From NCBI GenBank assembly GCA_964558665.1, contig CAZLFA010000005.1, positions 7,603 to 71,602 of the forward strand: a DNA stretch of 64,000 nt. The letters are read 5' to 3'. Every line of letters starts with the position of its first letter. Within the stretch, counting starts at the first letter, position 1. This DNA comes from an uncultured Syntrophaceae bacterium (GTDB taxonomy: Bacteria > Desulfobacterota > Syntrophia > Syntrophales > PHBD01). Below, piece by piece: positions 20,052 to 62,453 of this stretch. The position numbers and the translations under genes are program-made. A model generated the notes under the pieces. That model saw only the letters and a program-made list of their open reading frames with translations. It was not told the origin of the DNA and ran no database searches.

Positions 20052-20126
<75 letters not shown>

Positions 20127-33597: not shown

Positions 33598-34677
33598 ATG
33601 TTCGACATCAAAAGTCTTTTTAGCAAAAGAAAATCAATAGTTGGACTCGATATTGGGTCAAGTTCCATAAAACTTTTGGAAATAGCCGATACACCAAAAG
33701 GATATCAACTTAGCCATTTCTCGATGCTTCCTCTCCCCAGAGGAGTAATTGCTGATGGAGTTATTCATGATCCAAAGGCTCTTACAGATCACATCAAAGA
33801 ATTATTCAAAAAAACAAGTTTTGCCCGCAAGGGAATTGCGACATCATTGTCAGGACATTCAGTAATAGTCAAAAAAGTTAATTTCAATCTGATGGAAGAC
33901 AATGAATTGCGGGAACTTCTCAAGGACGAAGCAGGCAAATATCTGCCCTTCGATAATATGAATGATGTAAGTTTTGATTTTCACATCCTTGGGCCCACAG
34001 ATTATAATCCTAACCAGATGAATGTAATGCTAGTTGCCGCTAAGAAAGATGTCGTGAACAGTTATGTGGATTCACTATCAGACGCGGGTATGACCGCCAC
34101 CATCATGGATGTCGATTCATTTGCCCTTGAAACGATGTTTGAAGAAAACTACAGCTTCGATGAAAACGAGGTAACCATTCTCGTCAACATTGGAGCAAGT
34201 ATAACCAATATCAATGTTGTTCAGGGTGGGTCTTCCATTTTTACCAGAGATTTTACTCTGGGAGGAAATGCCATAACCGAAGCCATACAGGAAAAAATGG
34301 GCATATCATTTGAAGAAGCAGAAGACATAAAATTAGGAACTGCTGAAGTTGATGAATCCGTGCTCAAGGAAATTCACGACAGCCTCCTGATTTTTGCCGA
34401 ACCCCTCTGTTCAGAAATTGAAAGGTCCATTGAATATTTCACATCAACCTATGGTTCTGAATCGGTCAAGAGGGTTATTCTTTCAGGCGGGGGGGCAAAT
34501 ATTCCTGGGATAGCTGCAGACTTATCACACAGATTGAATATTGAAGCAGAAATCGTAAAACCCTTTCAGAAAATTGAAATTGGAAAGAATGTCATTGATG
34601 CTAAAGACATTTCCAATATCGCTCCCATTGCAGCGGTAGGAGTGGGTTTAGCATTAAGGAGGGTTGGGGACCGATGA
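33598..34677 (+). CDS. pilM: type IV pilus assembly protein PilM
   Basis: Actin-like ATPase fold, VGLDIGSSSIKLLE. Followed by pilNOPQ. Confidence 0.9.
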   Translation: MFDIKSLFSKRKSIVGLDIGSSSIKLLEIADTPKGYQLSHFSMLPLPRGVIADGVIHDPKALTDHIKELFKKTSFARKGIATSLSGHSVIVKKVNFNLMEDNELRELLKDEAGKYLPFDNMNDVSFDFHILGPTDYNPNQMNVMLVAAKKDVVNSYVDSLSDAGMTATIMDVDSFALETMFEENYSFDENEVTILVNIGASITNINVVQGGSSIFTRDFTLGGNAITEAIQEKMGISFEEAEDIKLGTAEVDESVLKEIHDSLLIFAEPLCSEIERSIEYFTSTYGSESVKRVILSGGGANIPGIAADLSHRLNIEAEIVKPFQKIEIGKNVIDAKDISNIAPIAAVGVGLALRRVGDR

Positions 34678-35222
34678 TAAAAATCAACCTTCTTCCTTAT
34701 GTTGAAGCAAAGAAAAAAGAAACAGCGGTAAGCCAAATTATTATCATTGCAGCATCATTAGCACTGTTTGCAGTTATTATTGCCGCTGTCTTCCTTTACA
34801 TGATGCTCAGCATTATGGGACTTGAAAAAGATCTAAAAGATAGTGAAGCCAAACTGGCGGCATTGACCAAGGTTGTCGGGGAAGTTGAAAATATAAAGGC
34901 AGAGAAACAAATTGTTGAAAAGAAATTGGCAATTATTAGAGGACTTGAGGAAAATAAACTTTATCCAATAAAAATGCTTGATCAGTTCTCAACTCTGGTA
35001 CCGGCAAAGGAGATTTGGCTGGAAAAAGTGTCGGAAGTCGGCACAGACATGAACATAGATGGCATTGGAAGAGACGGTATTGCCGTTGCCAAGTTTATGA
35101 AAACACTGGAAACCGCAAACTTCATTAATTCAGTTGAGCTTATCGCTTCAAGACAGAAAGAGATTGCCGGGGTTAAACTACAGCAATTCTCATTAAAATG
35201 CGCTACCAAGAGGAAGAAATAG
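34674..35222 (+). CDS. pilN: type IV pilus assembly protein PilN
   Basis: MIKINLLPY start, single TM helix, coiled coil. 4-nt overlap with pilM. Confidence 0.8.
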   Translation: MIKINLLPYVEAKKKETAVSQIIIIAASLALFAVIIAAVFLYMMLSIMGLEKDLKDSEAKLAALTKVVGEVENIKAEKQIVEKKLAIIRGLEENKLYPIKMLDQFSTLVPAKEIWLEKVSEVGTDMNIDGIGRDGIAVAKFMKTLETANFINSVELIASRQKEIAGVKLQQFSLKCATKRKK

Positions 35223-35225
35223 ACC

Positions 35226-35945
35226 ATGGCAATTGATATGGAAAGCATTAAAAATATGAATCCCAAGATGAAAGCCCTGCTTGTGGGGCTATTGATGATT
35301 CTCGGGGCTTATTTGTTCTGGTTTCTATATTTGGATTCGGCACTTGCAACAAAAGCTGATCTGACAAAAAAACTGGATGAAGTGCAAAAAGATATAAGCG
35401 CTAAACAGCTAATTGCCAATCAAAAGCAGAAATACCTTAGCGAAATTAAAGACCTGAGGGAGCTCTTTAATATCGCCCTGACAAAGCTTCCTGAGCAAAA
35501 GGAAATTCCAGGCCTTTTCCTGTCGGTTTCTGAAGCGGGGAAAGAAGCCGGCGTTGAATTTGTTCTTTTTGAGCCCCAGGCACCACCGAAGCAGCCTCCA
35601 CCAAAACCGGATGTCAAAGCCAATTTAAAGCCGTCCGATCAGAGGGCTGACCAACCGGCCAAAGACCAGAAACCTGATGCAGCAAAGGCAGCAGCGCCAA
35701 AGAAACCAGCAGAACCTGAAAGGTTTTACGAAGAAATACCGGTTCGCGTATCTGTAAATGGAGGCTTTCATAACACGGCAATTTTCTTTGACAAAGTTGC
35801 AAAACTATCCAGGATCGTTAATATAGAAGATATAAGCATGGGCGAGGGCAAAGATACGAAGGGGCGGGGACGTGTTGTTAATACTTCCTGCGTTATCAAA
35901 ACATACATGTTTTTGGAAAAGAAGGATGCAAAAACACAAAAATAG
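35226..35945 (+). CDS. pilO: type IV pilus assembly protein PilO (with Pro/Lys-rich insert)
   Basis: TM helix, coiled coil, C-terminal FYEEIPVRVSVNGGFHNTAIFFDKVAKLSRIVNI block. Operon position. Confidence 0.75.
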   Translation: MAIDMESIKNMNPKMKALLVGLLMILGAYLFWFLYLDSALATKADLTKKLDEVQKDISAKQLIANQKQKYLSEIKDLRELFNIALTKLPEQKEIPGLFLSVSEAGKEAGVEFVLFEPQAPPKQPPPKPDVKANLKPSDQRADQPAKDQKPDAAKAAAPKKPAEPERFYEEIPVRVSVNGGFHNTAIFFDKVAKLSRIVNIEDISMGEGKDTKGRGRVVNTSCVIKTYMFLEKKDAKTQK

Positions 35946-36651
35946 CCTGAAAGTAAAAAGTATATTTGTATTGACGGTATCTGTCATGACGGTAATGCTT
36001 TTTACCGTTGCAGAAGCAAGAGTATCAGTTAAATCATTCAAGTCGTCTTCACCGTCAAAATCCGTTGCACCGGCCCCAGCCCCTGCAGCACCGGCAAAGG
36101 CGGCGTCAGATAAATCTACCCTGTCAACTGCGGCAGGAGCAGCCGTTGGCGCAACGGCAGGAAGGGCTGTAGGCTCGGCAGTGGCAGGCACCCCATCAAA
36201 ACCAGCCACAACTACGCCGGCAGCAGCGCCAATAACAGATATAGCAGCAACCAAGACTGCTTTGCTTAACCCGGAAACATTTACATACACCCCTCTAGGG
36301 AAATCGGATCCCTTTAAACCGTTTATCGAAACGGATATTAAGGCTGCGTCTGCTGAAGGACGTGTGAGATCTATTCCTCTATCACCCTTGCAGAGACTGG
36401 ATGTAGAACAATTTACTCTTGTCGGAGTCGCCGGAAGTCCTAATCGCCGTGTCGCTATGGTAGAAGATAAAATGAACAAGAAATTTTACCCCGTAACAGT
36501 AGGGACGTCAATCGGTAAAAATAGTGGAAAAGTTGTAGATATTCTTGCTGATCGCGTAATAGTGGACGAAAAAGGAACTGTCTTCGAGGGTTCAAAAATA
36601 AAACCAAAGAGAATTATCATGAGGCTTTCAAGAGACGAGGTAAAACCATGA
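35926..36651 (+). CDS. pilP: type IV pilus assembly protein PilP (Ala/Pro-rich linker)
   Basis: Signal/anchor MQKHKNSLKVKSIFVLTVSVMTVMLF. C-terminal beta domain (DPFKPF...LVGVAG...VAMVED...Y.V..G). Start at the in-frame ATG at 35926. Confidence 0.65.
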   Translation: MQKHKNSLKVKSIFVLTVSVMTVMLFTVAEARVSVKSFKSSSPSKSVAPAPAPAAPAKAASDKSTLSTAAGAAVGATAGRAVGSAVAGTPSKPATTTPAAAPITDIAATKTALLNPETFTYTPLGKSDPFKPFIETDIKAASAEGRVRSIPLSPLQRLDVEQFTLVGVAGSPNRRVAMVEDKMNKKFYPVTVGTSIGKNSGKVVDILADRVIVDEKGTVFEGSKIKPKRIIMRLSRDEVKP

Positions 36652-38369
36652 AAAAACCCGCATCAATAATATTGTCGGTCATTGTATCTTGCGCAGTTTT
36701 TTGTTTTTTACTGGTGCCTTCCGCATCTATTGCACAGGAGAACAAAAGTGCCGGTGTCCGATCTGACAATGTCGGTATTTTGGAGAATATAGTTTTTCAA
36801 AAACTAAAGGGCAAAGAACGGATTGTTATTACACTCACCAAGAAGTCCCCTTTTAAAACTGAAGATAAGGCGGGAAGGACCATCACAATCAACCTTGAAA
36901 ATGCATTTGTACCGGAAGATTTGAGAAGGTCACAGGGTGAGGGGCAGCTTGACAATATTACACAGGCAGTACCCGATCAAAAGACAATTAATGGCAAACA
37001 ATGGATTTCTGTATCCATTGATCTTAAAGAACGTGTACCCTACAGCGTCAGGCGGGATGGGAAAAAGATAATTCTCGATTTTAATATTGCCTCTCTCGCG
37101 GGAAGAACACCTGCTTCACAGAGATCAGAAGCATTTGCAGATTCTTCGCCGGTAATGATCAAAAAAACCGAAAGAGACATTGCCGCAGGGCAACCGGGGA
37201 AATATTCCGGTCACAAGATAACAATTGATTTTCAGGATGCTAACATAAAGTCAGTACTTCGTCTGCTGGCGGAAGTGAGCGGCAAGAATATCGTCTCTGG
37301 AGAAGATGTGAAAGGCAACGTGTCTATAACCATGAAAAACGTTCCTTGGGATCAGGCACTGGATACGGTACTGGCTTTAAACGGTCTTGCAAAGCTGGAA
37401 AGCGGCAATGTCATATCTGTCATGACCTCCGAAAGACTCAGGAAAGAGACGGAAGAAAGGCGCAAAGCTGAGGAAGCCATCATAGCGGAGGAGAAGAAAC
37501 GCAAAGAGGAAGAGGTAAAGCTTCTCTCAGAACAGGGAAAATTAAGGCAGATTGCGATAGAAGCAAAGATTGTGGAAGCCTCGGATGAATTTGTACGCAA
37601 CCTCGGAGTTCGATGGGGTGGTAATACTCAGCAAAAAATGCATACCGGTGATTATTCATACGGGCTTTCCGGCGGGACAAACGTTTCTCAAACCAACCAG
37701 ATGATGTATAATTATCCTAGCGGCATCGGTTATACGAACGCAACAACGGGTCTACCGCTTACAATGGCGCCTGTTAACCTCCCCTCTGCATTGGCAGCAC
37801 CAACTTTCGGACTGGTTATCGGAGGTGCCAATGCTGTTCTGGAGGCGCAGATTCAGGCCCTTGAGACAACCAGCCAGGGTAAAATTATTTCTTCTCCAAA
37901 AGTAACCACAATGGACAATGTCAAAGCCGTTATTGAACAGGGACAGGATATACCATATGTTACCCCGGCAAGCGCTTCATCTCCGGCAACAGTCAACTTC
38001 AAAAAGGCGACACTTAAACTTGAAGTAAAACCTACCATCACATCTGAAGGCAAAGTTTCTATGGAAATTGCGGCAACCAACGACAGTGCAGACTACACAA
38101 AGGCTGCACAGCTTCAGGGAAATCCACCCATTAATACAAATCGCATTGAATCAAAGGTTGTCCTTAATGACGGCGATACCCTGGTCATTGGTGGTGTGCT
38201 AAAGACGGAAGATACAAAGGGTGTAACCGGAGTCCCCTGGCTCTCCAAAATTCCCATCCTGGGCTGGCTTTTCAAGGAAGAAGATGTCACCAAGAAGAGA
38301 AGGCAGCTGCTGATATTTGTGACACCGAAGATTTTGAAGACGGGAGACAAAATAGCGGAAAGAAGATAA
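36648..38369 (+). CDS. pilQ: type IV pilus secretin PilQ
   Basis: AMIN-like N-terminus, N0 block (ITIDFQDANIKSVLRLLAEVSGKNIV), secretin C-domain (VPWLSKIPILGWLFK). Confidence 0.9.
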   Translation: MKKPASIILSVIVSCAVFCFLLVPSASIAQENKSAGVRSDNVGILENIVFQKLKGKERIVITLTKKSPFKTEDKAGRTITINLENAFVPEDLRRSQGEGQLDNITQAVPDQKTINGKQWISVSIDLKERVPYSVRRDGKKIILDFNIASLAGRTPASQRSEAFADSSPVMIKKTERDIAAGQPGKYSGHKITIDFQDANIKSVLRLLAEVSGKNIVSGEDVKGNVSITMKNVPWDQALDTVLALNGLAKLESGNVISVMTSERLRKETEERRKAEEAIIAEEKKRKEEEVKLLSEQGKLRQIAIEAKIVEASDEFVRNLGVRWGGNTQQKMHTGDYSYGLSGGTNVSQTNQMMYNYPSGIGYTNATTGLPLTMAPVNLPSALAAPTFGLVIGGANAVLEAQIQALETTSQGKIISSPKVTTMDNVKAVIEQGQDIPYVTPASASSPATVNFKKATLKLEVKPTITSEGKVSMEIAATNDSADYTKAAQLQGNPPINTNRIESKVVLNDGDTLVIGGVLKTEDTKGVTGVPWLSKIPILGWLFKEEDVTKKRRQLLIFVTPKILKTGDKIAERR

Positions 38370-38391: not shown

Positions 38392-38429
38392 AACTGCCTG
38401 CTTTATTCATTTTTAGCAGGCAGTTTTTT
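38392..38429 (+). terminator. rho-independent terminator after pilQ (convergent junction)
   Basis: AACUGCCUGCU / AGCAGGCAGUU 11-bp stem followed by UUUUUU. The T-tract overlaps the stop codon of the convergent minus-strand gene. Confidence 0.7.
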
Positions 38430-39276
38430 ATTTGCTTCCGAGCTGATACTCAAAGACCTTAACAACCTTGTTGCCATCCGTATCGGTAACAGATGCTCCG
38501 AATTTGTATGCACCAGGTTTTTCAGCCATCCAGATTATCTTACCGGAATCCTTATTGATGGTCATACCTTCCAGAAGGGGTTTCTCAAGGGCATATATCA
38601 GCTTTTCTCCTTCCGACCCTTGACCCGTTAATTGTATTTCAAAAGGAGCTCCCCGTTTAAGGCTGCTCGACAACACCTTCATTTCCAGAGTAGGTGGAAG
38701 TGTATGAATGACAACCGCACTCGTGAACGGCTCAGATCTGACTCCATCAATGACAGGAACCACAGTGATACCGACCTCGTCTTTCTTTTTCAGGGTGTAT
38801 GACCGCAACTCGTTTCCTCTGGCATTCTCTATAACATTTCCGTTTATTTTCCATTCGTACTCGAAGGAGACTTCTGCCGTACCATTATAGTCATAGATCA
38901 CTTCCGCCTTAATCGGTTCCGTTGCCGTAGGCTGATCAGGAATGAACCTTACAGCTTTTATATTAACCTTGTTGCTTATTGGCAGTCGAGACTGGTCTAT
39001 GGGCTTGTCCTCACTGCCCATGATGAATTTTACCGGTGTTTGGACACCATCTTTTTGAACAGCTGCTTCCTGGACGTTCTTTTTATCCGGTACGGCAAAG
39101 AAATAAACTGCCGTTCCCACTAAAATCACGGCAGCCGATGCAATAGCAATTTGATTTACATATTTTGGTTTTTGCTTTACGGCTAGTTCAGGTTTTCCTG
39201 GTTTTCCCGGTGCCCCCGGTTTTCCCACTTTTCCTGGTACTTTCTTTTTTTTCGCTGTTGTCTTTTCAGTTTCCAA
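38428..39276 (-). CDS. membrane-anchored protein with GKPG repeats and two Ig-like extracytoplasmic domains (hypothetical; last gene of minor-pilin operon)
   Basis: N-terminus KKKKVPGKVGKPGAPGKPGKP, TM helix IAIASAAVILVGTAVYFF, then beta-rich repeats (FEYEWKINGN...; YALEKPLLEGMTINKDSGKIIWMAEKPGAYKF). 21 nt downstream of pilY1. No prepilin motif. Confidence 0.5.
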   Translation of the reverse strand: METEKTTAKKKKVPGKVGKPGAPGKPGKPELAVKQKPKYVNQIAIASAAVILVGTAVYFFAVPDKKNVQEAAVQKDGVQTPVKFIMGSEDKPIDQSRLPISNKVNIKAVRFIPDQPTATEPIKAEVIYDYNGTAEVSFEYEWKINGNVIENARGNELRSYTLKKKDEVGITVVPVIDGVRSEPFTSAVVIHTLPPTLEMKVLSSSLKRGAPFEIQLTGQGSEGEKLIYALEKPLLEGMTINKDSGKIIWMAEKPGAYKFGASVTDTDGNKVVKVFEYQLGSK

Positions 39277-39297: not shown

Positions 39298-42200
39298 TTA
39301 TTCCAGTCTCTTGTCTTTCCAGTAAAGTATATTTGTCCGGTTCGAAACGCCCGGCGGATTGAAGTTGATGCGTGTCGTATTTGCTGAAGTTCCGCTGCCG
39401 CCGCTTACTGTCACGTAAAGATCAGACATTGATGACCCGCCCGGTCTCATTGATATGATCGGGGCTGACGATATGCCTGATCCCACCGACATCGACCTGC
39501 TTCCGCTCGAGAAAACCGGCCCGCCCGTTACCATGTTTATCGCGTAAAGATACGAAGCTCCTCCCTGGTCGCACGGATTGTTTCCACTTGCGGGAACATA
39601 AGATGTGAAATAGGCGACACCGCCAAAAACAGTAGGATCAGCCAGAATCTTTTCGCCGCTTCCCGACAGGTTTATGTAATAACCGACTTTTGTTGTTGAA
39701 GATGTATCATATGTCGATCCGGCGGAAGTAATGTTATCGAGATCGTTTATGCTGTATGTCGTCGTGCGGTTGTTGTCCTTCACGGCAAAGAATTTCTCCT
39801 GCGCGTTGGATGCCGTAGGATCTACCTTGTCGCCCGTACCCCATTGAACCCACATATTGCCGCTCGAATCCTTTGCCACCACGGGAATTGTATAGATCGG
39901 CCTGATTGTGCCCGTCGATGCTCCAAAGAGTTTGCTTCCGGTCCAGTTTCCGGTATTGCAGGTGGCAGAGGCATCAAGCATCGCCTTGGTGCACATCTTG
40001 AAACGCCACATGGTGCCGCCGAGATCTCCGATATACACGGTATCTACGAAACTGTCGTTGTCTGTATCCACAATGGCCGCTGTTCCCGGAAGGCTGTAGT
40101 CCATGTCGGCGTTATCGGCATGGGTGTAGCTCCAGAGGATATTTCCGTTGCTGATATCTACAACGTAGAAACCCTTGCCCCGCGTATCGCAGGTGCCGCC
40201 TCCGGAACAGTCGGCGGCGTTGTATCCGGCCCCGACAAAGGCGGCCCATTTCTCTTCTTCGGAACCGCTGGTTTTGATCAGAACTCTGCCTGTCATGAAC
40301 TTGTTCCAGGGCTCCCCTATATACGGCGCCAACGTGGAACCAGGATTGATGCGCCAGGGAGATTTCGACGCCGTCGGGTAATCCGTTTTGCTTGATACAT
40401 TAGTAATAGGATCAGTAATGTCAAATATCCAGTATCCGCAGTAGTAAGGATACGATGTGGAATATGTAGCGGAAAATCCTTCGTCACAGTACTGGGAAGA
40501 GCTCCATGTCCACGAGGAAGCGCCGCGGCCCTCGCCGAATGCAAGAATTGTATGCCAATCGGTGCTTGTTTTCGATGTCCCGCTGCTTCCGGCCGACCAC
40601 CACACATCCGCCACGGTCACAGGGCCATCGACAAAATAGGCATGTGTCTGGGTGGTAGGATGGACGTTGTGGGCTATGTTTTTCAGCTTCAGCATCAGGT
40701 TCGGCGGGACAAAGCTCCAGGCCTCCGAGCCGTCGGTGGTTTTAAAGGCATGGAACTGCCCGTCATTCGCACCTGCCACGATCAGGCGATTTCCCTGTTC
40801 GGTGGTTGTGGCACAACTTGCAGCCCGGCAATGATCGCAGCGGTGCTTGGCAAAGGCGTTGATTGAGGTGGTAGTGCCGCAGCTATATGTTTTATTCGTG
40901 TCCCGCGCATCGTCATAGAACGCCGAAGGCGTCCCGACGGTTATCGGCGTGGCGCGGAAGATGTCCCCCAGTTTCCAGTTTTCCAGATTATAAGTACTGT
41001 CTCCGCGTATGAAGCCGACGATCATGGTCGCCTGCGAACTCGTGCAGTTATAACTGCAGTTCGTCTGTGATACCGTGCAAAAACCGCTGTTGCAGTTGGT
41101 GCCGGTACAGTTGGTCGTATCTGCCGTACAGGCGGAACTGTTTCCGTAAAGTATGCTTGTATATAAATCTTCAGTCGCAATATTGGAGGTTGTAAACTTT
41201 TTCAATTCCGCGGTGCCCGTTAAAAGACCGGTTCCGGAATCGCGACTCCTCTTGTAAGTCAGGATGTTCCGGCAGCCGGAACCTGCTGACGTCAGCGTGG
41301 TGGTGCACTCCGAAGAGACCGCAGACTGCAGGACACTGCCGGCGTCCCATATAACGGATCCCACCGAGCCGTCGGAGTTGATCTGGTACTTTTTCAGGTG
41401 GCCGAGCCAGAAAGACTCATTTTCGACGGGCTGGAAGGAGCCTTCGTAGAGGTAGTTTTCATCCTGGGTACGCGATGACTGCACGGAGGCCTGTGAAAAT
41501 GAATAAGTCGCTTCCCTGATGATATCGATGGCGGAACGCATCGCCTGTGAAAGCTGAGTGGCGTTTCCGGCCAGAAAGGCATAACCGGCAAGAGAGGCGG
41601 TACCGGGTTCGTTGGTTGTCGCACAATCATATGATGTTGAACCTGAACCCGTACAGGCGGCGGAGGTATCAGACATGCAGGAAGTAACGCCTGTCGGAAA
41701 CAGGTTGGCGGCACCGGAAGCGATAGAGTAACCGGTGGTAGAGCCGGTGTTGACCAGAAGCGGATTGTCGGTCCCGCCGTAGTAGGCCATCCAGTTGAGA
41801 GTGTTTTCAAAGATGTCGGGCATTCCTGAACCGAAACCGACGATAAATGTCTGATAGCCGGCCTCCTTCAATGCCTTCGCTTGTGCTACAGATTCCCGAC
41901 GCCTTTTGTAGGAACCGGACGTGTATTCAGCGCCGTTGCCCCCGCAGGCGTAGGTATCCGAGCCGTCGGTCATCATGATGACAAATTTTTTCCGGCAGCT
42001 TCCCGCATTGTCCGCCGCCTTGTTGGCGTCGAGATAGAGTTTTGCCTCATTGAGCGCCGCCGCCAGGGGCGTGCCGCCGCTGGCATATTCTCCGACTGCG
42101 CACTCTGTGGCCGTGGAGCATTTGTCGCCGCCGGATGTAACGCAAGAGGTTGTAGTCGTTGAACAGCTTGTTTTGTTGTTGCAGAAGATGCAACTGTACT

Positions 42201-42630
42201 TTACGCCCAGCTCTTTTCCGCTCACCAGGCGAATGCTGCCTGTTGAATAGTCGCCGTCGTCATTGCCGCCGGCATCCCGGTAACGCATAAAACCGATGCG
42301 GATCCCCAGGGTACTCTCATCCTGGGCATCGATCGTGCCGTCGCCGTTGTCGTCGAGGACATTGGCTATCGCGCGCTTGGCGATGGCAAGCCTGCTGCAG
42401 TCAACGGTATGGCCTGAACCGGAACTGCTGTAAAACGGGCCGGCACAGGTTGAATCCCCGTATATATTGCTTCCCCCGGCGGGATTCCATGACATACTGC
42501 CGGAGAGATCGAGGACAATGAGGGCGTCGGGGGCCACGGAGGTGAAGATGGCGGTCTCGTCGGCCTGTGCTCCGCCGACGGCAAGAACAACCATCAATGC
42601 ACAAATAATTTTCAGCAAATGCTTCTTCAT
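39298..42630 (-). CDS. pilY1: PilY1-like type IV pilus tip-associated protein with N-terminal vWA domain, unusually Cys-rich
   Basis: Signal peptide, vWA MIDAS DLSGSM (42493-42510) and MMTDGSD, C-terminal propeller-like region with a DTDNDSFVD loop (40042-40068). Follows pilX with a 10-nt gap. Confidence 0.85.
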   Translation of the reverse strand: MKKHLLKIICALMVVLAVGGAQADETAIFTSVAPDALIVLDLSGSMSWNPAGGSNIYGDSTCAGPFYSSSGSGHTVDCSRLAIAKRAIANVLDDNGDGTIDAQDESTLGIRIGFMRYRDAGGNDDGDYSTGSIRLVSGKELGVKYSCIFCNNKTSCSTTTTSCVTSGGDKCSTATECAVGEYASGGTPLAAALNEAKLYLDANKAADNAGSCRKKFVIMMTDGSDTYACGGNGAEYTSGSYKRRRESVAQAKALKEAGYQTFIVGFGSGMPDIFENTLNWMAYYGGTDNPLLVNTGSTTGYSIASGAANLFPTGVTSCMSDTSAACTGSGSTSYDCATTNEPGTASLAGYAFLAGNATQLSQAMRSAIDIIREATYSFSQASVQSSRTQDENYLYEGSFQPVENESFWLGHLKKYQINSDGSVGSVIWDAGSVLQSAVSSECTTTLTSAGSGCRNILTYKRSRDSGTGLLTGTAELKKFTTSNIATEDLYTSILYGNSSACTADTTNCTGTNCNSGFCTVSQTNCSYNCTSSQATMIVGFIRGDSTYNLENWKLGDIFRATPITVGTPSAFYDDARDTNKTYSCGTTTSINAFAKHRCDHCRAASCATTTEQGNRLIVAGANDGQFHAFKTTDGSEAWSFVPPNLMLKLKNIAHNVHPTTQTHAYFVDGPVTVADVWWSAGSSGTSKTSTDWHTILAFGEGRGASSWTWSSSQYCDEGFSATYSTSYPYYCGYWIFDITDPITNVSSKTDYPTASKSPWRINPGSTLAPYIGEPWNKFMTGRVLIKTSGSEEEKWAAFVGAGYNAADCSGGGTCDTRGKGFYVVDISNGNILWSYTHADNADMDYSLPGTAAIVDTDNDSFVDTVYIGDLGGTMWRFKMCTKAMLDASATCNTGNWTGSKLFGASTGTIRPIYTIPVVAKDSSGNMWVQWGTGDKVDPTASNAQEKFFAVKDNNRTTTYSINDLDNITSAGSTYDTSSTTKVGYYINLSGSGEKILADPTVFGGVAYFTSYVPASGNNPCDQGGASYLYAINMVTGGPVFSSGSRSMSVGSGISSAPIISMRPGGSSMSDLYVTVSGGSGTSANTTRINFNPPGVSNRTNILYWKDKRLE

Positions 42631-42640
42631 TTAACCCTCC

Positions 42641-43156
42641 TCATCTCGACATCGTCGAAATTTCAATTGGCCCGTAGCCGACTCCGACCCCGATAGCCGC
42701 AGTTGTATTGTACTTGGTATTCCGGCCTGTAACAGTTACATTGTAGCGCCTCTGCCCCCACGTCTGACCTCCTCCGATGGAATACCCGACCATGGGAATA
42801 AATACCGGCCCCGTAGTCGGTACGGTAGGCGTACCTATTGTGTACAGCGACGTCGGATCGACGGCGATGTCATCCGCAACCGTGGTTCCGGCACTGGCGG
42901 CAAGATTCTGCGGGTCAAAGGTCATGGTAAGGCGGTTAATGCCCTTCTCTGCAGCGGCAAGCGCCTTCTTGTCTCCCATGACCTGTACACTTGTCCTGAC
43001 ATCCTGAGTTGACAAGGCAACGACGAGCATCGCCAGGGCCATCAGGATCATAGAGGCGATTATCGCCAGAACCAGGGCAAATCCCTGCTGAGATCCCAGC
43101 CTGGGAAGGTTACCGATCATAATAGCCGTGATATCCTTTTTATTGTGCTGGTGCAT
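42641..43156 (-). CDS. pilX: PilX-like minor pilin
   Basis: QQGFALVLAIIASMILMALAMLVV hydrophobic N-terminus without Glu5, as is usual for PilX. Operon position. Confidence 0.6.
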   Translation of the reverse strand: MHQHNKKDITAIMIGNLPRLGSQQGFALVLAIIASMILMALAMLVVALSTQDVRTSVQVMGDKKALAAAEKGINRLTMTFDPQNLAASAGTTVADDIAVDPTSLYTIGTPTVPTTGPVFIPMVGYSIGGGQTWGQRRYNVTVTGRNTKYNTTAAIGVGVGYGPIEISTMSR

Positions 43157-43859
43157 GGTTCCTCACAATCACACTTGATGAATAGATTATCCTTGACGGC
43201 TGATTGGTTGTCGGATTCGCGTATTCCGTTTCCACGGCAAGAATTATGTCAATCCTCCTGATATCCGGCATGGTGGCGGCGGTAAGGGTTGACCCGGGTA
43301 GCAGCTCCGTCCCGGATCCGTTGAAGTAGCGAAAAACAGGCAGGCCCAGGGTGGTGTTTATCACCCTGACAGTTTTCTGATTGCCAACGCTGCCGCCCAA
43401 TAGAGGCTGGCCGCCGGGACTGCAACTGCCGGGCGGAGGTCTTTTGGATTCTCTGGTAATCTGCTGGTTAGCCGTATCGTAATTAAAGCGGATGATTTCG
43501 TTTTCCACATCACCGATTGATGAACTCTCGTTTATATCCATTTGAACAGTAATGGAGTTGGCGGTCGCTTCCTGAATTCCTTTATAAGTGGGAGTTGCAG
43601 AGGTACTGAAACAGTTCGCGGTGCTCAGCCACAATTCGGAGTCCATCACAAAATTGGGGTTGAACGATGCCATGCGGATTTCCATTTCCATCAACCCCAG
43701 GGCTGCCTTTTCGTCCTGTTGTGCCATTACTCTTCTTTCAATACCGCTTGATGAGCGTTGGGCTATATTCACAACGCCGTAAATCGCCACCAGCAGCAAC
43801 ATGCCGATCGTCATCGCCACTACAATCTCAACCAGGGTAAAACCTTTATGATTTTTCAT
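43140..43859 (-). CDS. pilW: PilW-like minor pilin
   Basis: Prepilin motif KGFTLVEIVVAMTIGMLLL. The ATG at 43859 forms an ATGA overlap with the pilV stop. The long upstream extension in the ORF track was rejected. Confidence 0.7.
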   Translation of the reverse strand: MKNHKGFTLVEIVVAMTIGMLLLVAIYGVVNIAQRSSSGIERRVMAQQDEKAALGLMEMEIRMASFNPNFVMDSELWLSTANCFSTSATPTYKGIQEATANSITVQMDINESSSIGDVENEIIRFNYDTANQQITRESKRPPPGSCSPGGQPLLGGSVGNQKTVRVINTTLGLPVFRYFNGSGTELLPGSTLTAATMPDIRRIDIILAVETEYANPTTNQPSRIIYSSSVIVRNHAPAQ

Positions 43860-44293
43860 ACGCATCCAAACCTGAAACGTTCCTGCCTTGTAACAACAAG
43901 GCTTTCCGTTACTCCTGTATTGTTTATCGGGGGCCAGGTAACCGTGACAGTCACCCGCCATGCGTTTGTAGCAATATTCGTTATTGTCGTTTGTACCTGA
44001 TATACGGCATCTCCCTGAACCGAGCCTGTCGTACCGCTTATCTTTACAGACTCTGTCGGTAAAGTGCCCGTGGTTACTGCAAAGCAGGGGTTCATGATCA
44101 GCGATTCCCGCAACTCCAGCTGGCTTTGCAGTATGCCTGCCGCCCGGCCAAGATAGTCTGATCTGGCTGTCATCTTCCATGCTGATGGCTGCAGGGCAAG
44201 CAGCGCCAGGATGCCGGTTACGGTTATCATTATTGCTATCAGCACTTCTATTAAGCCGAATCCTCGTTTATTATTGCATATTGAAAGTGACAT
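43856..44293 (-). CDS. pilV: PilV-like minor pilin
   Basis: KRGFGLIEVLIAIMITVTGILAL prepilin cleavage/methylation motif. Confidence 0.7.
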   Translation of the reverse strand: MSLSICNNKRGFGLIEVLIAIMITVTGILALLALQPSAWKMTARSDYLGRAAGILQSQLELRESLIMNPCFAVTTGTLPTESVKISGTTGSVQGDAVYQVQTTITNIATNAWRVTVTVTWPPINNTGVTESLVVTRQERFRFGCV

Positions 44294-44747
44294 AGGCCTT
44301 TCCTGTCGTACTTACAGTGATGACTGCTGTTGACCCCCTGCTGTTTCTTAAAGTAACCGTACCGTTTGGATCGCTTGTTCCCCGTACTCTGAAGAAAATT
44401 TGCTTTGTGCCTGAAAAATTGGCTGCTGATATCGCAATATCGGCGTCAAATGTTCTCGGTGTCTTGGTTTGATAAGTATTAAATACCGTCGGCGTAGCCG
44501 TCTCTGCATAAGATATAACATAGTTGTTATTGCTGGAATCATCAAAAGTAATTTTGTAGATTCTGCTCTCGCTTCTCGCCTTTTCTTTTGCATTTGCCAT
44601 GTCTGCTTGGACATCCCTGGCTGCTGATCGCAAATTGGCATTTGAAGAGTATCTGTTCCAGGTAAATGTGGTAAAAGTTGCCAAAATGCCCATAATGAAC
44701 ATTACGATCAGTACTTCCACCATTGAAAAGCCGCGTCTGTTTTTCAT
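44271..44747 (-). CDS. fimT: FimT/FimU (GspH-like) minor pilin
   Basis: MKNRRGFSMVEVLIVMFIMGILA prepilin motif. About 158 aa. First pilin of the operon. Confidence 0.7.
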   Translation of the reverse strand: MKNRRGFSMVEVLIVMFIMGILATFTTFTWNRYSSNANLRSAARDVQADMANAKEKARSESRIYKITFDDSSNNNYVISYAETATPTVFNTYQTKTPRTFDADIAISAANFSGTKQIFFRVRGTSDPNGTVTLRNSRGSTAVITVSTTGKAYVTFNMQ

Positions 44748-45601
44748 TACATCTTTCCGTCTATGGTCTGTATAAGTTCATCCTCGGGCAACGCCCCTTC
44801 GCGAACCCGCCCATCCGGCATGATTATGGTCGGAGTTGCTCCGAAACCGAGAGATTGCGCCAATTTTTTTGAATTATCGATCTCCTCGGTGTTGCATTCC
44901 ACTTTTTTTATCTCTTTTCTATCGAAATTATCTTCAAGCATTTTCATTGATTTACTGCACACGACACTCTTTGCCTTCCAATATGCGTCCTTATGAAAAT
45001 CGAGTGGAAAAAATTTTATATAGAAGGAGATGTCTTTTCGTTTCAAAGCAATCTGCTTAATCGTCTTATGAAGCTGGCCGCAGAAACCGCAATCCGGGTC
45101 CGTAAACAAAATTACCTTTTTTGAAGCTGCAGTTTCACCTACCACCAATGCCTCATTCAAAGGAATCGCTGATATATCGACTTTTTTATTATCCTTTATC
45201 TTCCGTATCGTCTCTGCCGTAAAATTTACCATGGGATCAAGTCCGATCAGCGAACCCATCATCACATATTTCTTGTTCACATCGACATATAGAATATATG
45301 GCTTCCGCCTGCTTTCAATTACAATCTCGCAAAATCCCTTTGCCGCACTGTCCGACCAACTGACAATTTTTACATCCGATGCATCAAGCTTTTTCAATAC
45401 ACCCCTGATATCCTCCTCGGTGAAAGTTGTACAAGTTGTCTGCGAAGATTTCTGCTGTATAACCTTTGAAGATTTCTTGCCCCTGTCACTCTTGGATTCC
45501 TTTCCCCAGGCTGCAGTTCCCGTCTGAACAATAAACAATAATAAGACGAAACAAAAAACCAGACCTTGATTCTTCGGCTGTTCAAATCGATTCATTATCA
45601 A
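44747..45601 (-). CDS. DsbC/DsbG-like periplasmic thiol:disulfide isomerase
   Basis: FTDPDCGFCGQLH (compare E. coli DsbC FTDITCGYCHKLH), thioredoxin fold with an N-terminal domain, signal peptide. TTG at 45601 lies 9 nt after AGGAGG (45611-45616); the ATG at 45595 is an alternative. The stop overlaps the fimT ATG by 1 nt. Confidence 0.75.
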   Translation of the reverse strand: MIMNRFEQPKNQGLVFCFVLLLFIVQTGTAAWGKESKSDRGKKSSKVIQQKSSQTTCTTFTEEDIRGVLKKLDASDVKIVSWSDSAAKGFCEIVIESRRKPYILYVDVNKKYVMMGSLIGLDPMVNFTAETIRKIKDNKKVDISAIPLNEALVVGETAASKKVILFTDPDCGFCGQLHKTIKQIALKRKDISFYIKFFPLDFHKDAYWKAKSVVCSKSMKMLEDNFDRKEIKKVECNTEEIDNSKKLAQSLGFGATPTIIMPDGRVREGALPEDELIQTIDGKM

Positions 45602-45789
45602 GCGGCAGCACCTCCTGAAGTTTATCAACCATTTATTATTCTTTAAAAAAATGTTTAATAATTATACCTTGAGTTAAAAGTTTTAACAATATATTTACTT
45701 TGCTCGGTTTTAGGAATTTGTTTTTGGCAGGGGCTTTGGAACACCTCTTCCGGGGCTAAACACCTATCCCAGAGGAGGTGCTATGCTCA

Positions 45790-45880
45790 CCCGGCAACCC
45801 TGCTGCCATATCCAATTCACTTAAGACTTAGGCCAGAAGCTCTGCGTCCCACCCTTTCGGATGGTTTGCCTTTATCAGGA
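45790..45880 (-). promoter_or_regulatory. c-di-GMP-I (GEMM-I) riboswitch aptamer
   Basis: Minus-strand AAAGGCAAACCAUCCGAAAGGGUGGGACGCAGAGCUUCUGGCCUAAGUC..GGAUAUGGCAGCAGGGUUGCC. It matches the remembered Vc2 core GGGCAAACCAUUCGAAAGAGUGGGACGCAAAGCCUCCGGCCUAAAC almost base for base. GAAA tetraloop hairpin plus both halves of the 11-nt tetraloop receptor (CCUAAG/UAUGG). Confidence 0.8.
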
Positions 45881-45933: not shown

Positions 45934-45962
45934 ACAGTAACACCAATAGATTATGTTGTCAA
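45934..45962 (-). promoter_or_regulatory. sigma70-like promoter candidate for the riboswitch-led operon
   Basis: Minus strand: TTGACA (45957-45962), 17-nt spacer, TACTGT (45934-45939), about 50 nt upstream of the aptamer. Confidence 0.3.
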
Positions 45963-46089
45963 TAAAAAATATTACCCACGCCGAATTCTCTCTTGACACG
46001 TTACAGGTGCTGTGTTAGCGTTCAAACCAATTCTAATAATATTGAAATATCGCAATAATATCAATGCACAACAGCATGCGGTTGCCTTG

Positions 46090-46776
46090 ATGATCACGGA
46101 AACTGATTCCCTAAAAAAAAGAATAGCTGATTGTATCGAAAGAAAAAAATTGGCCGATGCCAAGAATCTCTTAATGCAGCAATTGAATGAACACCCCATG
46201 GATATTGAAGCAAAAATGCTTCTTGGAAGGGTATTGATTGAGGCAGGGGAAGTGCGAGCGGCATTTGAAGTTTTTCGAGAAATCGAATCCGCTTTTATTG
46301 ACTTAAGCATGTTTTTTGTGCATCTTGGCGACATATACAGAAACCGGGGCATGAACAGGGAAGCCACGGACTGTTATCATAAATTTCTGGATTTAAACCC
46401 CGGATCGGCAATTTCCAAGGAACTCTCAGTTACCATAGATTCTTTAATCGGTAATCATGAATCATACAGCGGGGACAAAGATTCCTCAAAAGAAATGGCA
46501 GGAATTGCACCTGAATTCTATACAATCACATTAGCTGATCTTTATGTAAGGCAGGGACATATAGACATGGCCTGCGAAGTTCTTGAGAAAATGCTTATAA
46601 AAAACCCTGCCAACGAAGATGCAGCGAAATTGCTGAGAGAACTTAAGCCAGTTACTTGTAGCGAATCGGATTCAGGTGTTTTAAAAAACAAAAAAATGGA
46701 AATTGTTATTAACAAGCTCACCCAGTGGCTTAATAAGTGCATTGATCGCAAGGCAGATCAACCAATGGTGCATTGA
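46090..46776 (+). CDS. TPR repeat protein (cytoplasmic)
   Basis: Several TPR-like helical pairs (LLGRVLIEAGEVRAAFEVF..., LGDIYRNRGMNREATDCYHKFLDLNP, LADLYVRQGHIDMACEVLEKMLIKNP). The start is uncertain. 4-nt overlap with pepP. Confidence 0.55.
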   Translation: MITETDSLKKRIADCIERKKLADAKNLLMQQLNEHPMDIEAKMLLGRVLIEAGEVRAAFEVFREIESAFIDLSMFFVHLGDIYRNRGMNREATDCYHKFLDLNPGSAISKELSVTIDSLIGNHESYSGDKDSSKEMAGIAPEFYTITLADLYVRQGHIDMACEVLEKMLIKNPANEDAAKLLRELKPVTCSESDSGVLKNKKMEIVINKLTQWLNKCIDRKADQPMVH

Positions 46777-62376: not shown

Positions 62377-62453
62377 CGGGATGTGGCCCAGCCTGGTAGG
62401 GCACTGCGTTCGGGACGCAGGAGTCGCGCGTTCAAATCGCGCCATCCCGACCA
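62377..62453 (+). tRNA. tRNA-Pro (anticodon CGG)
   Basis: Hand fold: acceptor CGGGAUG/CAUCCCG, anticodon arm CUGCG-UUCGGGA-CGCAG, T loop UUCAAAU, encoded CCA. Confidence 0.9.

What the first reader, a model, noticed from the sequence alone, without database searches (positions are those of the whole stretch)
45790..45880. GEMM-I (c-di-GMP-I) riboswitch aptamer in the 380-nt gap upstream of the minor-pilin/PilY1 operon
Read on the minus strand, the gap contains AAAGGCAAACCAUCCGAAAGGGUGGGACGCAGAGCUUCUGGCCUAAGUCUUAAGUGAAUUGGAUAUGGCAGCAGGGUUGCC.

- This lines up almost base for base with the V. cholerae Vc2 aptamer core as I remember it (GGGCAAACCAUUCGAAAGAGUGGGACGCAAAGCCUCCGGCCUAAACC...).
- The first hairpin, CCAUCC-GAAA-GGGUGG, carries a GNRA tetraloop.
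- The second hairpin carries both halves of the canonical 11-nt tetraloop receptor (CCUAAG ... UAUGG).
- The ACGCA(A/G)AGC junction is present.
- The position equivalent to Vc2 G20 (the G just before CAAACC) is G here. That argues for c-di-GMP rather than the 3'3'-cGAMP-selective GEMM-Ib subclass, but this rests on a hand alignment.

No ORF explains this conservation-like pattern.
Basis: partly seen in the sequence, partly recalled or inferred. Interest (0 to 1): 0.75.

Follow-up and report, generated by a model that had tools for sequence, protein, structure and literature searches.

The report
c-di-GMP riboswitch before pilus-tip operon
The flagged 91 bases are a genuine class I c-di-GMP riboswitch in front of a type IV pilus tip operon of an uncultured, probably Syntrophales, bacterium: a correct call of a well-known RNA class, with one changed binding-pocket base and no terminator.

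Summary
Rfam places a full-length match at 45879-45789 (-). The top hit is the variant model RF03167 (c-di-GMP-I-GGC; 66.3 bits, cut-off 59). With the P1 flanks trimmed, the parent model RF01051 scores 62.6 bits (cut-off 35).

The GGC label is a near-tie, not membership. The two consensus sequences differ in the core only at ACGC-G-AA versus ACGC-A-AA, and the window has ACGC-A-G-A. So G20, A47 and C92 are canonical and A48 is G.

Seventeen orthologous leaders share the same synteny (TPR gene, then dsbC-like gene, four minor pilins, pilY1). They keep the fold: 96.5% of cells paired, five compensatory pairs. Most carry AA at positions 47-48.

The first downstream gene is a DsbC-like oxidoreductase, not a pilin.

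No intrinsic terminator was found. A conserved CCCUGCC box (45733-45726) is the best downstream partner of the aptamer's 3' half in 17 of 17 leaders. A 10-nt perfect anti-Shine-Dalgarno (45782-45773) sits just after the aptamer.

Best model: c-di-GMP sensing with a translational output resembling Vc2/tfoY. I lean towards an OFF switch, but the direction is unproven.

This is a new member of a known kind.

The parts
45789..45879 (-). c-di-GMP-I (GEMM-I) aptamer. P1 is CCUG 45879-45876 paired with CGGG 45793-45790.
   Evidence: RF03167 66.3 bits on the full length. RF01051 62.6 bits on 45873-45793. My own covariance model R1 gives 105.5 bits. Across 17 orthologs 96.5% of cells are paired and 5 pairs change on both sides.
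45849..45864 (-). P1a hairpin CCAUCC-GAAA-GGGUGG, with the GNRA tetraloop at 45858-45855
   Evidence: Two of its six pairs change on both sides among orthologs.
45870..45870 (-). G at Vc2 position 20, which contacts one guanine of the ligand
   Evidence: Aligned to 'AAaGGCAAAc' of RF01051. Numbering is anchored on GAAA = residues 32-35 and the G14-C93 pair (PMC3764141). Role of G20 from PMC5888326.
45842..45843 (-). Junction nucleotides: A47 (45843, canonical, the intercalating base) and G48 (45842, A in the consensus)
   Evidence: cmscan leaves only this column unmatched in GACGCA-A. The RF03167 consensus has G-A here and RF01051 has A-A.
45794..45794 (-). C at Vc2 position 92, the Watson-Crick partner of the second guanine
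   Evidence: It is the unpaired C between P2 and P1 in the RF03167 structure line. It is invariant in 17 orthologs.
45827..45832 (-). Tetraloop-receptor 5' half, CCUAAG
   Evidence: CCUAA is invariant in orthologs.
45806..45810 (-). Tetraloop-receptor 3' half, UAUGG
45796..45807 (-). P2 3' strand GGCAGCAGGGUU, the switching strand. It pairs either with the P2 5' strand or with the downstream box.
   Evidence: Minimum-energy folds pair it with the box in 5 of 5 leaders folded and in the window sub-fragment (-37.9 kcal/mol, z -2.56).
45773..45782 (-). Anti-Shine-Dalgarno AGCACCUCCU, a perfect 10-nt complement of 45616-45607
   Evidence: It is the best partner of the SD region anywhere upstream: -23.7 kcal/mol against -15.6 for the next best.
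45742..45780 (-). Hairpin H (CACCUCCUCUGGG ... CCCGGAAGAGGUG), which sequesters the anti-SD
   Evidence: -21.4 kcal/mol, z -3.22, 0 of 200 shuffles as stable. Both arms are identical and the loop varies in the 89% and 60% orthologs.
45726..45733 (-). Conserved box CCCCUGCC (core CCCUGCC), complementary to the P2 3' strand
   Evidence: The exact core is present in 15 of the 16 leaders scanned for it, and CUCUGCC in the other. A window over it is the best downstream partner of the aptamer 3' half in 17 of 17 leaders. Duplex energies are -15.8 to -27.0 kcal/mol.
45607..45616 (-). Shine-Dalgarno region AGGAGGUGCU, 6-15 nt upstream of the TTG start
   Evidence: The start at 45601 follows from the 284-aa gene call on four metagenome contigs.
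44747..45601 (-). First regulated gene: a secreted DsbC-like thiol:disulfide isomerase (284 aa)
   Evidence: Pfam Thioredoxin_2 2.1e-15 and DsbC_N 1.7e-6. Homologs are named DsbC family.
42641..44747 (-). Four minor pilin genes: GspH/FimU-like 44271-44747, 43856-44293, about 43140-43865, and PilX-like 42641-43156
   Evidence: Pfam N_methyl, GspH and PilX_N.
39298..42630 (-). PilY1-like gene (1110 aa)
   Evidence: Pfam T4P_PilY1 3e-12.
38428..39276 (-). Last gene of the run, a He_PIG Ig-domain protein
   Evidence: Pfam He_PIG 6.1e-6.
45934..45962 (-). Candidate leader promoter: TTGACA, 17 nt, then TGT-TACTGT (extended -10)
   Evidence: Read from the sequence. Conserved in the 89% ortholog apart from one base of the -10. 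Not reported by the consensus scan because the -10 matches only 3 of 6. Weak evidence.
45661..45689 (-). Promoter-like site TTGTTA-17-TATAAT between the box and the SD
   Evidence: 10 of 12 matches. But 2 sites were found against 2.6 expected by chance, so this is a lead only.

Best explanation
This is a functional class I c-di-GMP (GEMM-I) riboswitch. It lies in the 5' leader of a minus-strand operon: dsbC-like gene, four minor pilins, pilY1 and an Ig-domain protein. The operon sits next to pilMNOPQ in an uncultured, probably Syntrophales, bacterium.

The ligand-contacting positions G20, A47 and C92 are canonical, so the expected ligand is c-di-GMP. The neighbouring pocket base A48 is G. That change, not a true GGC genotype, makes Rfam rank the GGC-variant model first.

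The switch does not use an intrinsic terminator. When the aptamer is not locked by ligand, its P2 3' strand and P1 3' strand pair with a conserved downstream box (CCCUGCC, 45733-45726). This forms a long irregular hairpin that extends hairpin H and keeps the anti-Shine-Dalgarno (45782-45773) buried.

When c-di-GMP locks the aptamer, that clamp is lost. The anti-SD can then pair with the distant SD (45616-45607). Translation of the first gene falls, and possibly, through polarity, so does expression of the operon. That makes it an OFF switch, as reported for Vc2/tfoY.

What is shown: the aptamer's identity, its conservation, the complementarities and the absence of a terminator. What is inferred: the ligand, the coupling between the elements and the sign of regulation. 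I put OFF at about 0.55 and ON at about 0.35-0.4.
For: Identity:
- RF03167 66.3 bits against cut-off 59.
- RF01051 62.6 bits against cut-off 35.

Pocket:
- cmscan alignments.
- Numbering anchored by PMC3764141. Roles of G20, A47 and C92 from PMC5888326.
- The RF03167 and RF01051 consensus sequences differ in the core only at ACGC-G-AA versus ACGC-A-AA.

Conservation:
- Same synteny in relatives at 89%, 60% and about 50-55% DsbC identity.
- 17 aptamers are 96.5% paired with 5 compensatory pairs, against 34-49% paired when partners are slid.
- Orthologs outside the window clade score RF01051 at 75.9-77.4 bits.

A48G is tolerated elsewhere:
- 45 genome loci across many phyla, 41 covariance-model hits.
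- Their downstream genes include flagellin, a pilin, PilM, TadE and adhesin-like proteins.

Expression platform:
- No terminator-like site between the aptamer and the start codon.
- The box is the best partner of the aptamer 3' half in 17 of 17 leaders.
- Minimum-energy folds use that pairing.
- The anti-SD is a 10-nt perfect complement of the SD at -23.7 kcal/mol.
- Modelled anti-SD:SD pairing in the window goes from 0.0 to 12.1 expected base pairs when the aptamer is locked.
- Modelled SD accessibility falls from 0.32 to 0.09 in the window, and falls in 12 of 17 leaders.

Precedent: Vc2 is an OFF switch with an anti-RBS downstream of the aptamer (bioRxiv 10.1101/617340).
Against: - No binding or expression data exist.
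- A48 is described as a key ligand-recognition nucleotide, and the effect of G there is unknown.
- The aptamer alone is not the nearest-neighbour minimum-energy fold (z -0.06). This is usual for riboswitches, but it means the fold rests on homology.
- The box and the P2 3' strand are both nearly invariant. Their pairing is supported by conservation and two wobble-compatible changes, not by true covariation.
- The anti-SD complementarity is strong only in the window: 6 bp in the 89% ortholog and 5 bp in the 60% ortholog.
- Modelled accessibility changes are small in most leaders.
- In the unlocked state the freed 5' half of the aptamer is also predicted to pair with the SD (4.1 bp in the window, 10.1 bp in L004). 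That would give the opposite sign.
- A promoter-like site between the box and the SD could make part of the operon's expression independent of the riboswitch.
Confidence: 0.8

Rival explanations
1. Same riboswitch, opposite sign: c-di-GMP turns the operon ON. Without ligand the box takes the P2 3' strand. The freed pyrimidine-rich P2 5' strand (CUUCUGG) or P1 5' strand (UCCUGA) then masks the SD, or invades hairpin H and releases the anti-SD. Alternatively, the long box helix acts as a U-tract-less terminator.
For: - In the unlocked ensemble the 5' half of the aptamer pairs with the SD: 4.1 expected bp in the window and 10.1 in L004.
- The geometry, with a competitor helix whose 5' side is the P2 3' strand, is that of the common GEMM-I terminator ON design (PMC1950547).
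- From memory, c-di-GMP riboswitch control of type IV pili in Clostridioides difficile is activating.
Against: - No U tract follows the box helix.
- The anti-SD next to the aptamer is the strongest SD partner by 8 kcal/mol.
- Modelled SD accessibility is lower in the locked state in 12 of 17 leaders.
Confidence: 0.35
2. It is a true member of the c-di-GMP-I-GGC variant class (RF03167) and senses something other than c-di-GMP.
For: RF03167 is the top clan hit on the full-length element, in the window (66.3 bits against 59) and in L004, L007 and L012.
Against: - The single core position that separates the two consensus sequences (G at 47) is A here.
- RF03167 drops below its cut-off when P1 is trimmed, while RF01051 stays at 62.6 bits.
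- The 60% ortholog has the same junction and is called RF01051 at 74.8 bits.
- RF03167 also wins on other ACGCAGAGC aptamers such as L021, L041 and L043, so the model attracts A48G sequences.
- That 'GGC' means positions 20, 47 and 92 is my inference from the consensus sequences. The defining paper (Weinberg et al. 2017, PNAS) was not available.
Confidence: 0.07
3. The aptamer mainly forms the 3' end of a small RNA, or is otherwise uncoupled from the operon, and a promoter between it and the SD drives the pilus genes. This is what was found for most Vc2-containing transcripts.
For: - A promoter-like TTGTTA-17-TATAAT lies at 45689-45661.
- A conserved TTGATTT ... TG-GAGATA block sits at the equivalent place in other orthologs.
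- Vc2 precedent with promoters downstream of the aptamer and sRNAs ending at the aptamer.
Against: - The promoter scan is at chance level: 2 found, 2.6 expected.
- The ortholog block lacks the T at the last -10 position and is not reported by the scan.
- A 10-nt anti-SD/SD complementarity makes sense only on a read-through transcript.
Confidence: 0.15
4. It senses 3'3'-cGAMP, or both dinucleotides, like Geobacter GEMM-Ib.
For: It comes from a deltaproteobacterial-type lineage and is pilus-associated, as in Geobacter. One ortholog (L067) carries A at position 20.
Against: Position 20 is G in the window and in 16 of 17 orthologs. The signature of GEMM-Ib is A at that position (A14 of Gs1761).
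Confidence: 0.05

Closest known systems
c-di-GMP-I riboswitch (GEMM-I, Rfam RF01051), type example Vibrio cholerae Vc2
   Same: The two-hairpin fold, GAAA tetraloop with receptor, G20/A47/C92, the GGCAAAC and GACGC motifs, and a 5' leader position in front of motility or surface genes.
   Different: - A48 is G.
- P1 is only 4 bp.
- There is no terminator.
- The regulated operon begins with a dsbC-like gene.
Vc2/tfoY expression platform (translational OFF switch with an anti-RBS downstream of the aptamer and promoters on both sides)
   Same: - The anti-SD lies a few nucleotides 3' of the aptamer.
- The SD is far downstream, about 165 nt.
- There is a possible second promoter between the aptamer and the gene.
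   Different: - Here a separate conserved box about 55-75 nt downstream competes for the P2 3' strand.
- The anti-SD is held in its own hairpin.
- No experimental data exist.
c-di-GMP-I-GGC variant (Rfam RF03167)
   Same: The overall fold. Its model gives the best E-value on the full-length element.
   Different: The variant's distinguishing G at position 47 is absent. The window instead has A47 and G48.
GEMM-I with a terminator overlapping P2 (the common delta-proteobacterial ON design; Weinberg et al. 2007)
   Same: A downstream strand competes for the 3' side of P2, and the element is associated with pilus genes.
   Different: The competitor helix encloses a 45-70 nt insert and is not followed by a U tract.
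GEMM-Ib (3'3'-cGAMP riboswitch, Geobacter Gs1761)
   Same: The fold, a related lineage and a pilus or extracellular gene context.
   Different: It has A at position 20. The window has G.

Membership tests
c-di-GMP-I (RF01051, GEMM-I) | Covariance-model score at or above the curated gathering score (35 bits) | tested here: met
   62.6 bits, E 8.9e-13, on 45873-45793 although cut at both ends. The full-length run also reported one hidden clan hit above threshold.
c-di-GMP-I (RF01051, GEMM-I) | P1a/P1b hairpin plus P2 hairpin closed by P1, maintained by compensatory changes | tested here: met
   17 orthologs, 25 pairs, 96.5% paired, 5 pairs with changes on both sides. Slid controls give 34-49% paired.
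c-di-GMP-I (RF01051, GEMM-I) | GNRA tetraloop on P1a with a receptor in P2 | tested here: met
   GAAA at 45858-45855, CCUAAG at 45832-45827 and UAUGG at 45810-45806. The rule is stated in PMC1950547.
c-di-GMP-I (RF01051, GEMM-I) | Ligand-contacting G20, A47 and C92 | tested here: met
   G at 45870, A at 45843 and C at 45794. Numbering and roles.
c-di-GMP-I (RF01051, GEMM-I) | A48, listed among the highly conserved key pocket nucleotides | tested here: not met
   G at 45842. The same change occurs in 45 genome loci from many phyla, so it seems tolerated.
c-di-GMP-I (RF01051, GEMM-I) | 5' regulatory configuration to a gene for the cell surface or motility | tested here: met
   Same strand, 187 nt upstream of the dsbC-like gene, minor pilins and pilY1.
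c-di-GMP-I (RF01051, GEMM-I) | Binds c-di-GMP and changes gene expression | not testable with these tools
   Needs in-line probing or ITC, and a reporter assay.
c-di-GMP-I-GGC (RF03167) | Score at or above its gathering score (59 bits) | tested here: inconclusive
   66.3 bits full length, but not reported once P1 is trimmed. The near-identical ortholog L008 goes to RF01051.
c-di-GMP-I-GGC (RF03167) | G instead of A at the intercalating position 47. This is the only core difference between the two Rfam consensus sequences. | tested here: not met
   The window has A at 45843. The meaning of 'GGC' is inferred, because the source paper was not held.
GEMM-Ib (3'3'-cGAMP) | A at position 20 | tested here: not met
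   G at 45870.
Terminator-type GEMM-I expression platform | GC-rich hairpin overlapping the P2 3' strand, followed by a U tract | tested here: not met
   No terminator-like site on the minus strand between 45789 and 45601. The box helix is followed by AAAAAC.
Vc2-like translational platform | Anti-RBS just 3' of the aptamer, complementary to a distant RBS | tested here: met
   45782-45773 is a perfect complement of 45616-45607 and the best SD partner at -23.7 kcal/mol.
Vc2-like translational platform | Ligand-dependent masking of the RBS | tested here: inconclusive
   Thermodynamic models only: 0.32 to 0.09 in the window, with small or no change in several orthologs.

The most novel reading that the evidence does not exclude
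The A48G junction (ACGC-A-G-AGC) may mark an unrecognised pocket subtype of GEMM-I. It has arisen repeatedly in Actinomycetota, Clostridia, Chloroflexota, Gemmatimonadota, Planctomycetota and Proteobacteria, and it may have altered affinity or selectivity for cyclic dinucleotides. In this lineage it is joined to a terminator-less, long-range 'clamp' expression platform built around a conserved CCCUGCC box, which has not been described for GEMM-I.
Probability: 0.12. Interest if true: 0.55.

Novelty: new member of a known kind. Interest (0 to 1): 0.3.

Why it matters
It adds a clear case of direct RNA-level c-di-GMP control over the pilus-priming and tip complex (minor pilins plus PilY1) and over a dedicated disulfide isomerase. 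The host lineage is an uncultured, probably syntrophic, delta-proteobacterial type in which pili may matter for cell-cell contact.

It has practical value for annotation. The Rfam GGC-variant model captures ordinary GEMM-I aptamers that carry A48G, so RF03167 hits should not be read as 'variant ligand' without checking position 47.

The conserved CCCUGCC box and the anti-SD give a testable non-terminator platform.

None of this changes what is known about the riboswitch class.

Tried and rejected
- **Variant paper.** I could not read the paper that defines the c-di-GMP-I variants: DOI and PMC id not held, and it is absent from the 224-RNA paper. The meaning of 'GGC' therefore rests on comparing the two Rfam consensus lines.
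- **Hidden clan hit.** The clan filter hid the RF01051 score. Trimming the P1 flanks exposed it.
- **Intrinsic terminator.** None in the window leader or in L060. L070 has one weak site at chance level.
- **Box as a universal anti-SD.** The complementarity is good in L070 and L076 and moderate in the L060 group, but weak in the window and the L064 group. Rejected as a general rule.
- **Conserved proximal sigma-70 promoter.** The window site is at chance frequency. The conserved ortholog block lacks the last T of the -10 and is not detected. Kept only as a lead.
- **Thermodynamic test of ON versus OFF**. It leans OFF but is not decisive, because the unlocked aptamer's 5' half also pairs with the SD.
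- **Source organism.** Exact look-ups gave only unnamed metagenome contigs. 'Syntrophales' comes from the names of homologs.
- **Baseline for A48G.** The genome scan for ACGCAGAGC did not return the window's own genome.
Full report

A gathering-threshold scan of the whole window against Rfam 15 gives three hits. Two are tRNAs. The third is a full-length match at 45879-45789 (-) to RF03167, c-di-GMP-I-GGC: 66.3 bits, cut-off 59, E 1.9e-13. One lower-ranked hit from the same clan was suppressed.

The tool keeps only the best clan member, so I re-ran the scan on 45793-45873, which removes the P1 flanks. RF03167 then falls below its cut-off and RF01051 (c-di-GMP-I) is reported at 62.6 bits (cut-off 35, E 8.9e-13), although the match is cut at both ends.

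A core pattern with 20 specified bases matches once in the window, against 0.00 expected. No ORF of 60 aa or more covers the element.

**2. Anatomy**

| Element | Sequence | Position (-) |
|---|---|---|
| P1 | CCUG / CGGG | 45879-45876 / 45793-45790 |
| P1b | G-C, C-G | 45869-45868 with 45845-45844 |
| P1a with tetraloop | CCAUCC-GAAA-GGGUGG | 45864-45849 |
| P2 with receptor halves | CCUAAG / UAUGG | 45832-45827 / 45810-45806 |

I tied the numbering to the Vc2 crystal numbering through facts stated in PMC3764141: the tetraloop is residues 32-35, C22 pairs with G45, and G14 pairs with C93. This gives:
- G20 = 45870 (G)
- A47 = 45843 (A)
- A48 = 45842 (G)
- A49 = 45841 (A)
- C92 = 45794 (C)

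G20 and C92 read the two guanines of the ligand. A47, the intercalating base (PMC3764141), also contacts a ligand 2'-hydroxyl through its backbone phosphate (PMC5888326). The three classic contacts are therefore canonical. The neighbouring A48 is changed to G; PMC3764141 lists it among the highly conserved key pocket nucleotides.

**3. Why Rfam says 'GGC', and why that is not membership**

- The RF03167 consensus printed by cmscan is ...AAAGGCAAACC...GGGACGCGAAgCc...GcUGCcg.
- The RF01051 consensus is ...AAaGGCAAAc...GACGCAAAgCc...GcUgCCg.
- In the conserved core they differ only at the base after ACGC, G versus A, which is position 47. I therefore read 'GGC' as G20, G47, C92.

The paper that defined the variant was not available, so this reading is an inference.

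The window has A at 47 and G at 48. That is two mismatches to the RF03167 junction and one to the RF01051 junction.

The call flips with trivial changes. The ortholog L008 has the same junction and differs at six aptamer positions, and it is assigned to RF01051 at 74.8 bits. L004 goes to RF03167 at 64.9 bits. RF03167 also wins on unrelated aptamers that carry ACGCAGAGC, such as L021, L041 and L043.

The defining feature was tested and not met. I do not file the element under RF03167.

**4. Context**

Downstream on the same strand:
- a secreted DsbC-like thiol:disulfide isomerase, 44747-45601, with a TTG start that matches the 284-aa gene call
- a GspH/FimU-like minor pilin, two further N-methyl minor pilins and a PilX-like protein
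- a 1110-aa PilY1 homolog
- a He_PIG Ig-domain protein

pilM ... pilP, pilQ (33598-38369, +) converge on this operon. Upstream and divergent are a TPR protein and an M24 peptidase.

Homologs of the DsbC-like protein are named Syntrophales or Syntrophaceae in public records.

**5. Conservation in orthologous leaders**

The arrangement GCV_H, M24 peptidase, TPR, then divergently DsbC, minor pilins and PilY1, recurs on contigs whose DsbC is 89%, 60% and about 50-55% identical.

Seventeen leaders carry the aptamer at the same place. On their alignment:
- The GEMM-I structure has 96.5% standard pairs.
- Five pairs change on both sides.
- The covariation score was reached by 0 of 500 shuffles.
- Slid registers pair only 34-49%.

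Outside the window's small clade the junction is ACGU-AA-AGC, and Rfam calls these RF01051 at 75.9-77.4 bits.

Among 80 metagenome loci encoding relatives of this DsbC, only the 14 closest carry the aptamer. A complete genome with the same synteny lacks it: L063 had no hit. The association belongs to one sub-lineage.

**6. Is A48G special?**

A scan of 185,579 species genomes for GGCAAACC-N(8-20)-GGGACGCAGAGC returned 45 loci. They come from Actinomycetota, Clostridia, Chloroflexota, Gemmatimonadota, Planctomycetota, and Alpha- and Deltaproteobacteria.
- 41 matches in the searched set (40 in those loci, plus the window itself) were found by a covariance model built from the orthologs, with ordinary J2/1 (G/A, then C) and G20.
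- 14 of the 17 submitted to Rfam pass a GEMM-I cut-off.
- Their downstream genes include flagellin, a type IV pilin-like protein, PilM, TadE, and fn3/PKD or CAP-domain secreted proteins. This is the classic GEMM regulon (PMC1950547).

The simplest reading is that G48 is a tolerated natural variant of a c-di-GMP aptamer. I could not measure how rare it is relative to A48, and its effect on affinity is unknown.

**7. Expression platform: what is shown**

(a) There is no terminator-like site between the aptamer and the start codon. The only conspicuous hairpin is H (45780-45742): -21.4 kcal/mol, z -3.2. It is followed by UUCCAAAG, not by a run of U.

(b) A CCCUGCC box lies 55-75 nt after the aptamer in every ortholog examined, in otherwise diverged sequence. 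It is exact in 15 of the 16 leaders scanned and CUCUGCC in the other. In the window it is at 45733-45726. L067, which was outside that scan, has a degenerate version.
- It is the reverse complement of the P2 3' strand (GGCAGGG).
- In all 17 leaders the 16-nt window over the box is the best partner of the aptamer's 3' half anywhere downstream: -14.5 to -26.3 kcal/mol, against -11.4 to -19.5 for the runner-up.
- Unconstrained folds use this pairing in 5 of 5 leaders.
- In the window it forms a long irregular hairpin that continues into H (45812-45720; -37.9 kcal/mol, z -2.56).
- The two substitutions seen (C to U in L076; A to G next to the box in several leaders) keep pairing through G-U. This is compatible with pairing, but it is not covariation.

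(c) The 5' arm of H, AGCACCUCCU (45782-45773), starts 7 nt after the aptamer. It is a perfect 10-nt complement of the SD region AGGAGGUGCU (45616-45607) and by far its best upstream partner: -23.7 against -15.6 kcal/mol. The L070/L076 group has an equivalent CCUCC element at the same place, with flanks that match its own SD.

**8. Expression platform: what is inferred**

- Without ligand, the box clamps the P2 and P1 3' strands. This lengthens H and keeps the anti-SD buried, so the SD is free.
- With c-di-GMP the aptamer holds those strands. H stands alone, and the anti-SD can take the SD.

In partition-function models of the window, expected anti-SD:SD pairs go from 0.0 to 12.1 when the aptamer is locked. 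Mean SD accessibility goes from 0.32 to 0.09, and accessibility falls in 12 of 17 leaders, mostly by little.

This is the logic proposed for Vc2/tfoY. That riboswitch is an OFF switch with an anti-RBS downstream of the aptamer, and it has promoters on both sides of the aptamer (bioRxiv 10.1101/617340).

The sign is not secure. In the unlocked ensemble the freed 5' half of the aptamer is itself predicted to pair with the SD (4.1 bp in the window, 10.1 bp in L004). The complementarity is also much weaker in the two closest orthologs.

A Rho-dependent component is possible but untested. The stretch around and after the box is C-rich and G-poor, and it is exposed only when the aptamer is locked.

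I put OFF at about 0.55, ON at 0.35-0.4, and the remainder on no cis effect.

**9. Promoters**

A TTGACA-17-TGTTACTGT site at 45962-45934 could start the leader. I read it from the sequence. It is conserved in the 89% ortholog apart from one base of the -10, but it is too weak for the scan.

A TTGTTA-17-TATAAT site at 45689-45661 lies between the box and the SD. The scan finds promoter-like sites at chance frequency there: 2 found, 2.6 expected. Neither site counts as evidence.

**10. Comparison and verdict**

The element works like, and is a member of, the c-di-GMP-I class: model score, fold with covariation, tetraloop and receptor, G20/A47/C92, and a 5' position before pilus genes.

It is not a GGC variant and not GEMM-Ib. 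It differs from the commonest GEMM-I design in lacking a terminator, and from Vc2 in having a separate conserved anti-P2 box.

GEMM association with pilus assembly genes in delta-proteobacteria was noted when the motif was discovered. A full-text search for a c-di-GMP riboswitch in front of minor pilins or PilY1 found nothing specific, so the gene association is a modest extension.

Overall this is a correct first-stage call of a known kind, with two details worth recording: the A48G pocket change, which misleads Rfam's variant model, and the box/anti-SD platform.

Noticed in passing
window 33598-38369 (+): A pilM ... pilP, pilQ (secretin) cluster converges on the riboswitch-controlled minor-pilin/pilY1 operon, so the window holds a compact type IV pilus locus (Pfam PilM_2, PilP, Secretin).
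   Followed up: partly
L067:1129-1222 (+): An orthologous aptamer, in front of a DsbC-like gene 56% identical to the window's, has A instead of G at the G20 position (AAAAAAGCAAAC). It also has a weakened P2 and a degenerate box (CUACC). It is either a cGAMP-type switch or a decaying copy.
   Followed up: no
L060:2470-2530, L064:2400-2450, L070:1330-1380 (alignment A4, columns about 140-180): A conserved DNA block GA..TTT.(C/T)TTGATTT, then 14-15 nt, then TG(T/A)G(A/G)(G/C)ATA lies between the box and the SD in orthologs outside the window clade. It looks like a -35 plus extended -10 element but lacks the final T of the -10, and it forms no conserved hairpin. Its function is unknown.
   Followed up: partly
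L044:3713-3913 (-): An Oscillospiraceae contig carries two GEMM-I aptamers in tandem. One has the canonical AA junction and the other the AG (A48G) junction.
   Followed up: no
L063:2138-2501: A complete 4.57-Mb genome has the same TPR / DsbC / minor-pilin / PilY1 synteny but no GEMM-I aptamer in the 363-nt intergenic region. The riboswitch has been gained or lost within this gene neighbourhood.
   Followed up: partly
L008, L011 (5' ends): Contigs of the 60% ortholog from different samples begin at the same base, the 5' edge of the aptamer. Such assembly breaks might indicate a repeat or strain variation just upstream.
   Followed up: no
window 20052-20123 (+) and 62377-62450 (+): Two tRNA genes (Rfam RF00005, 64.2 and 62.1 bits).
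   Followed up: no
window 43140-44180 (-) and 45972-46367 (-): The longest-ORF listing overstates two features. The third minor pilin is called as 239-241 aa on metagenome contigs, not 346 aa. The 131-aa ORF at 45972-46367 lies antisense to the TPR gene and is probably spurious.
   Followed up: partly
L070:1242-1269 (+): In the L070/L076 group the hairpin that occupies the place of H (GGTGTTGATCAAGGCGCC) is followed by TTTATTATAT and is flagged as terminator-like. Related leaders may therefore use a different output from the window.
   Followed up: no
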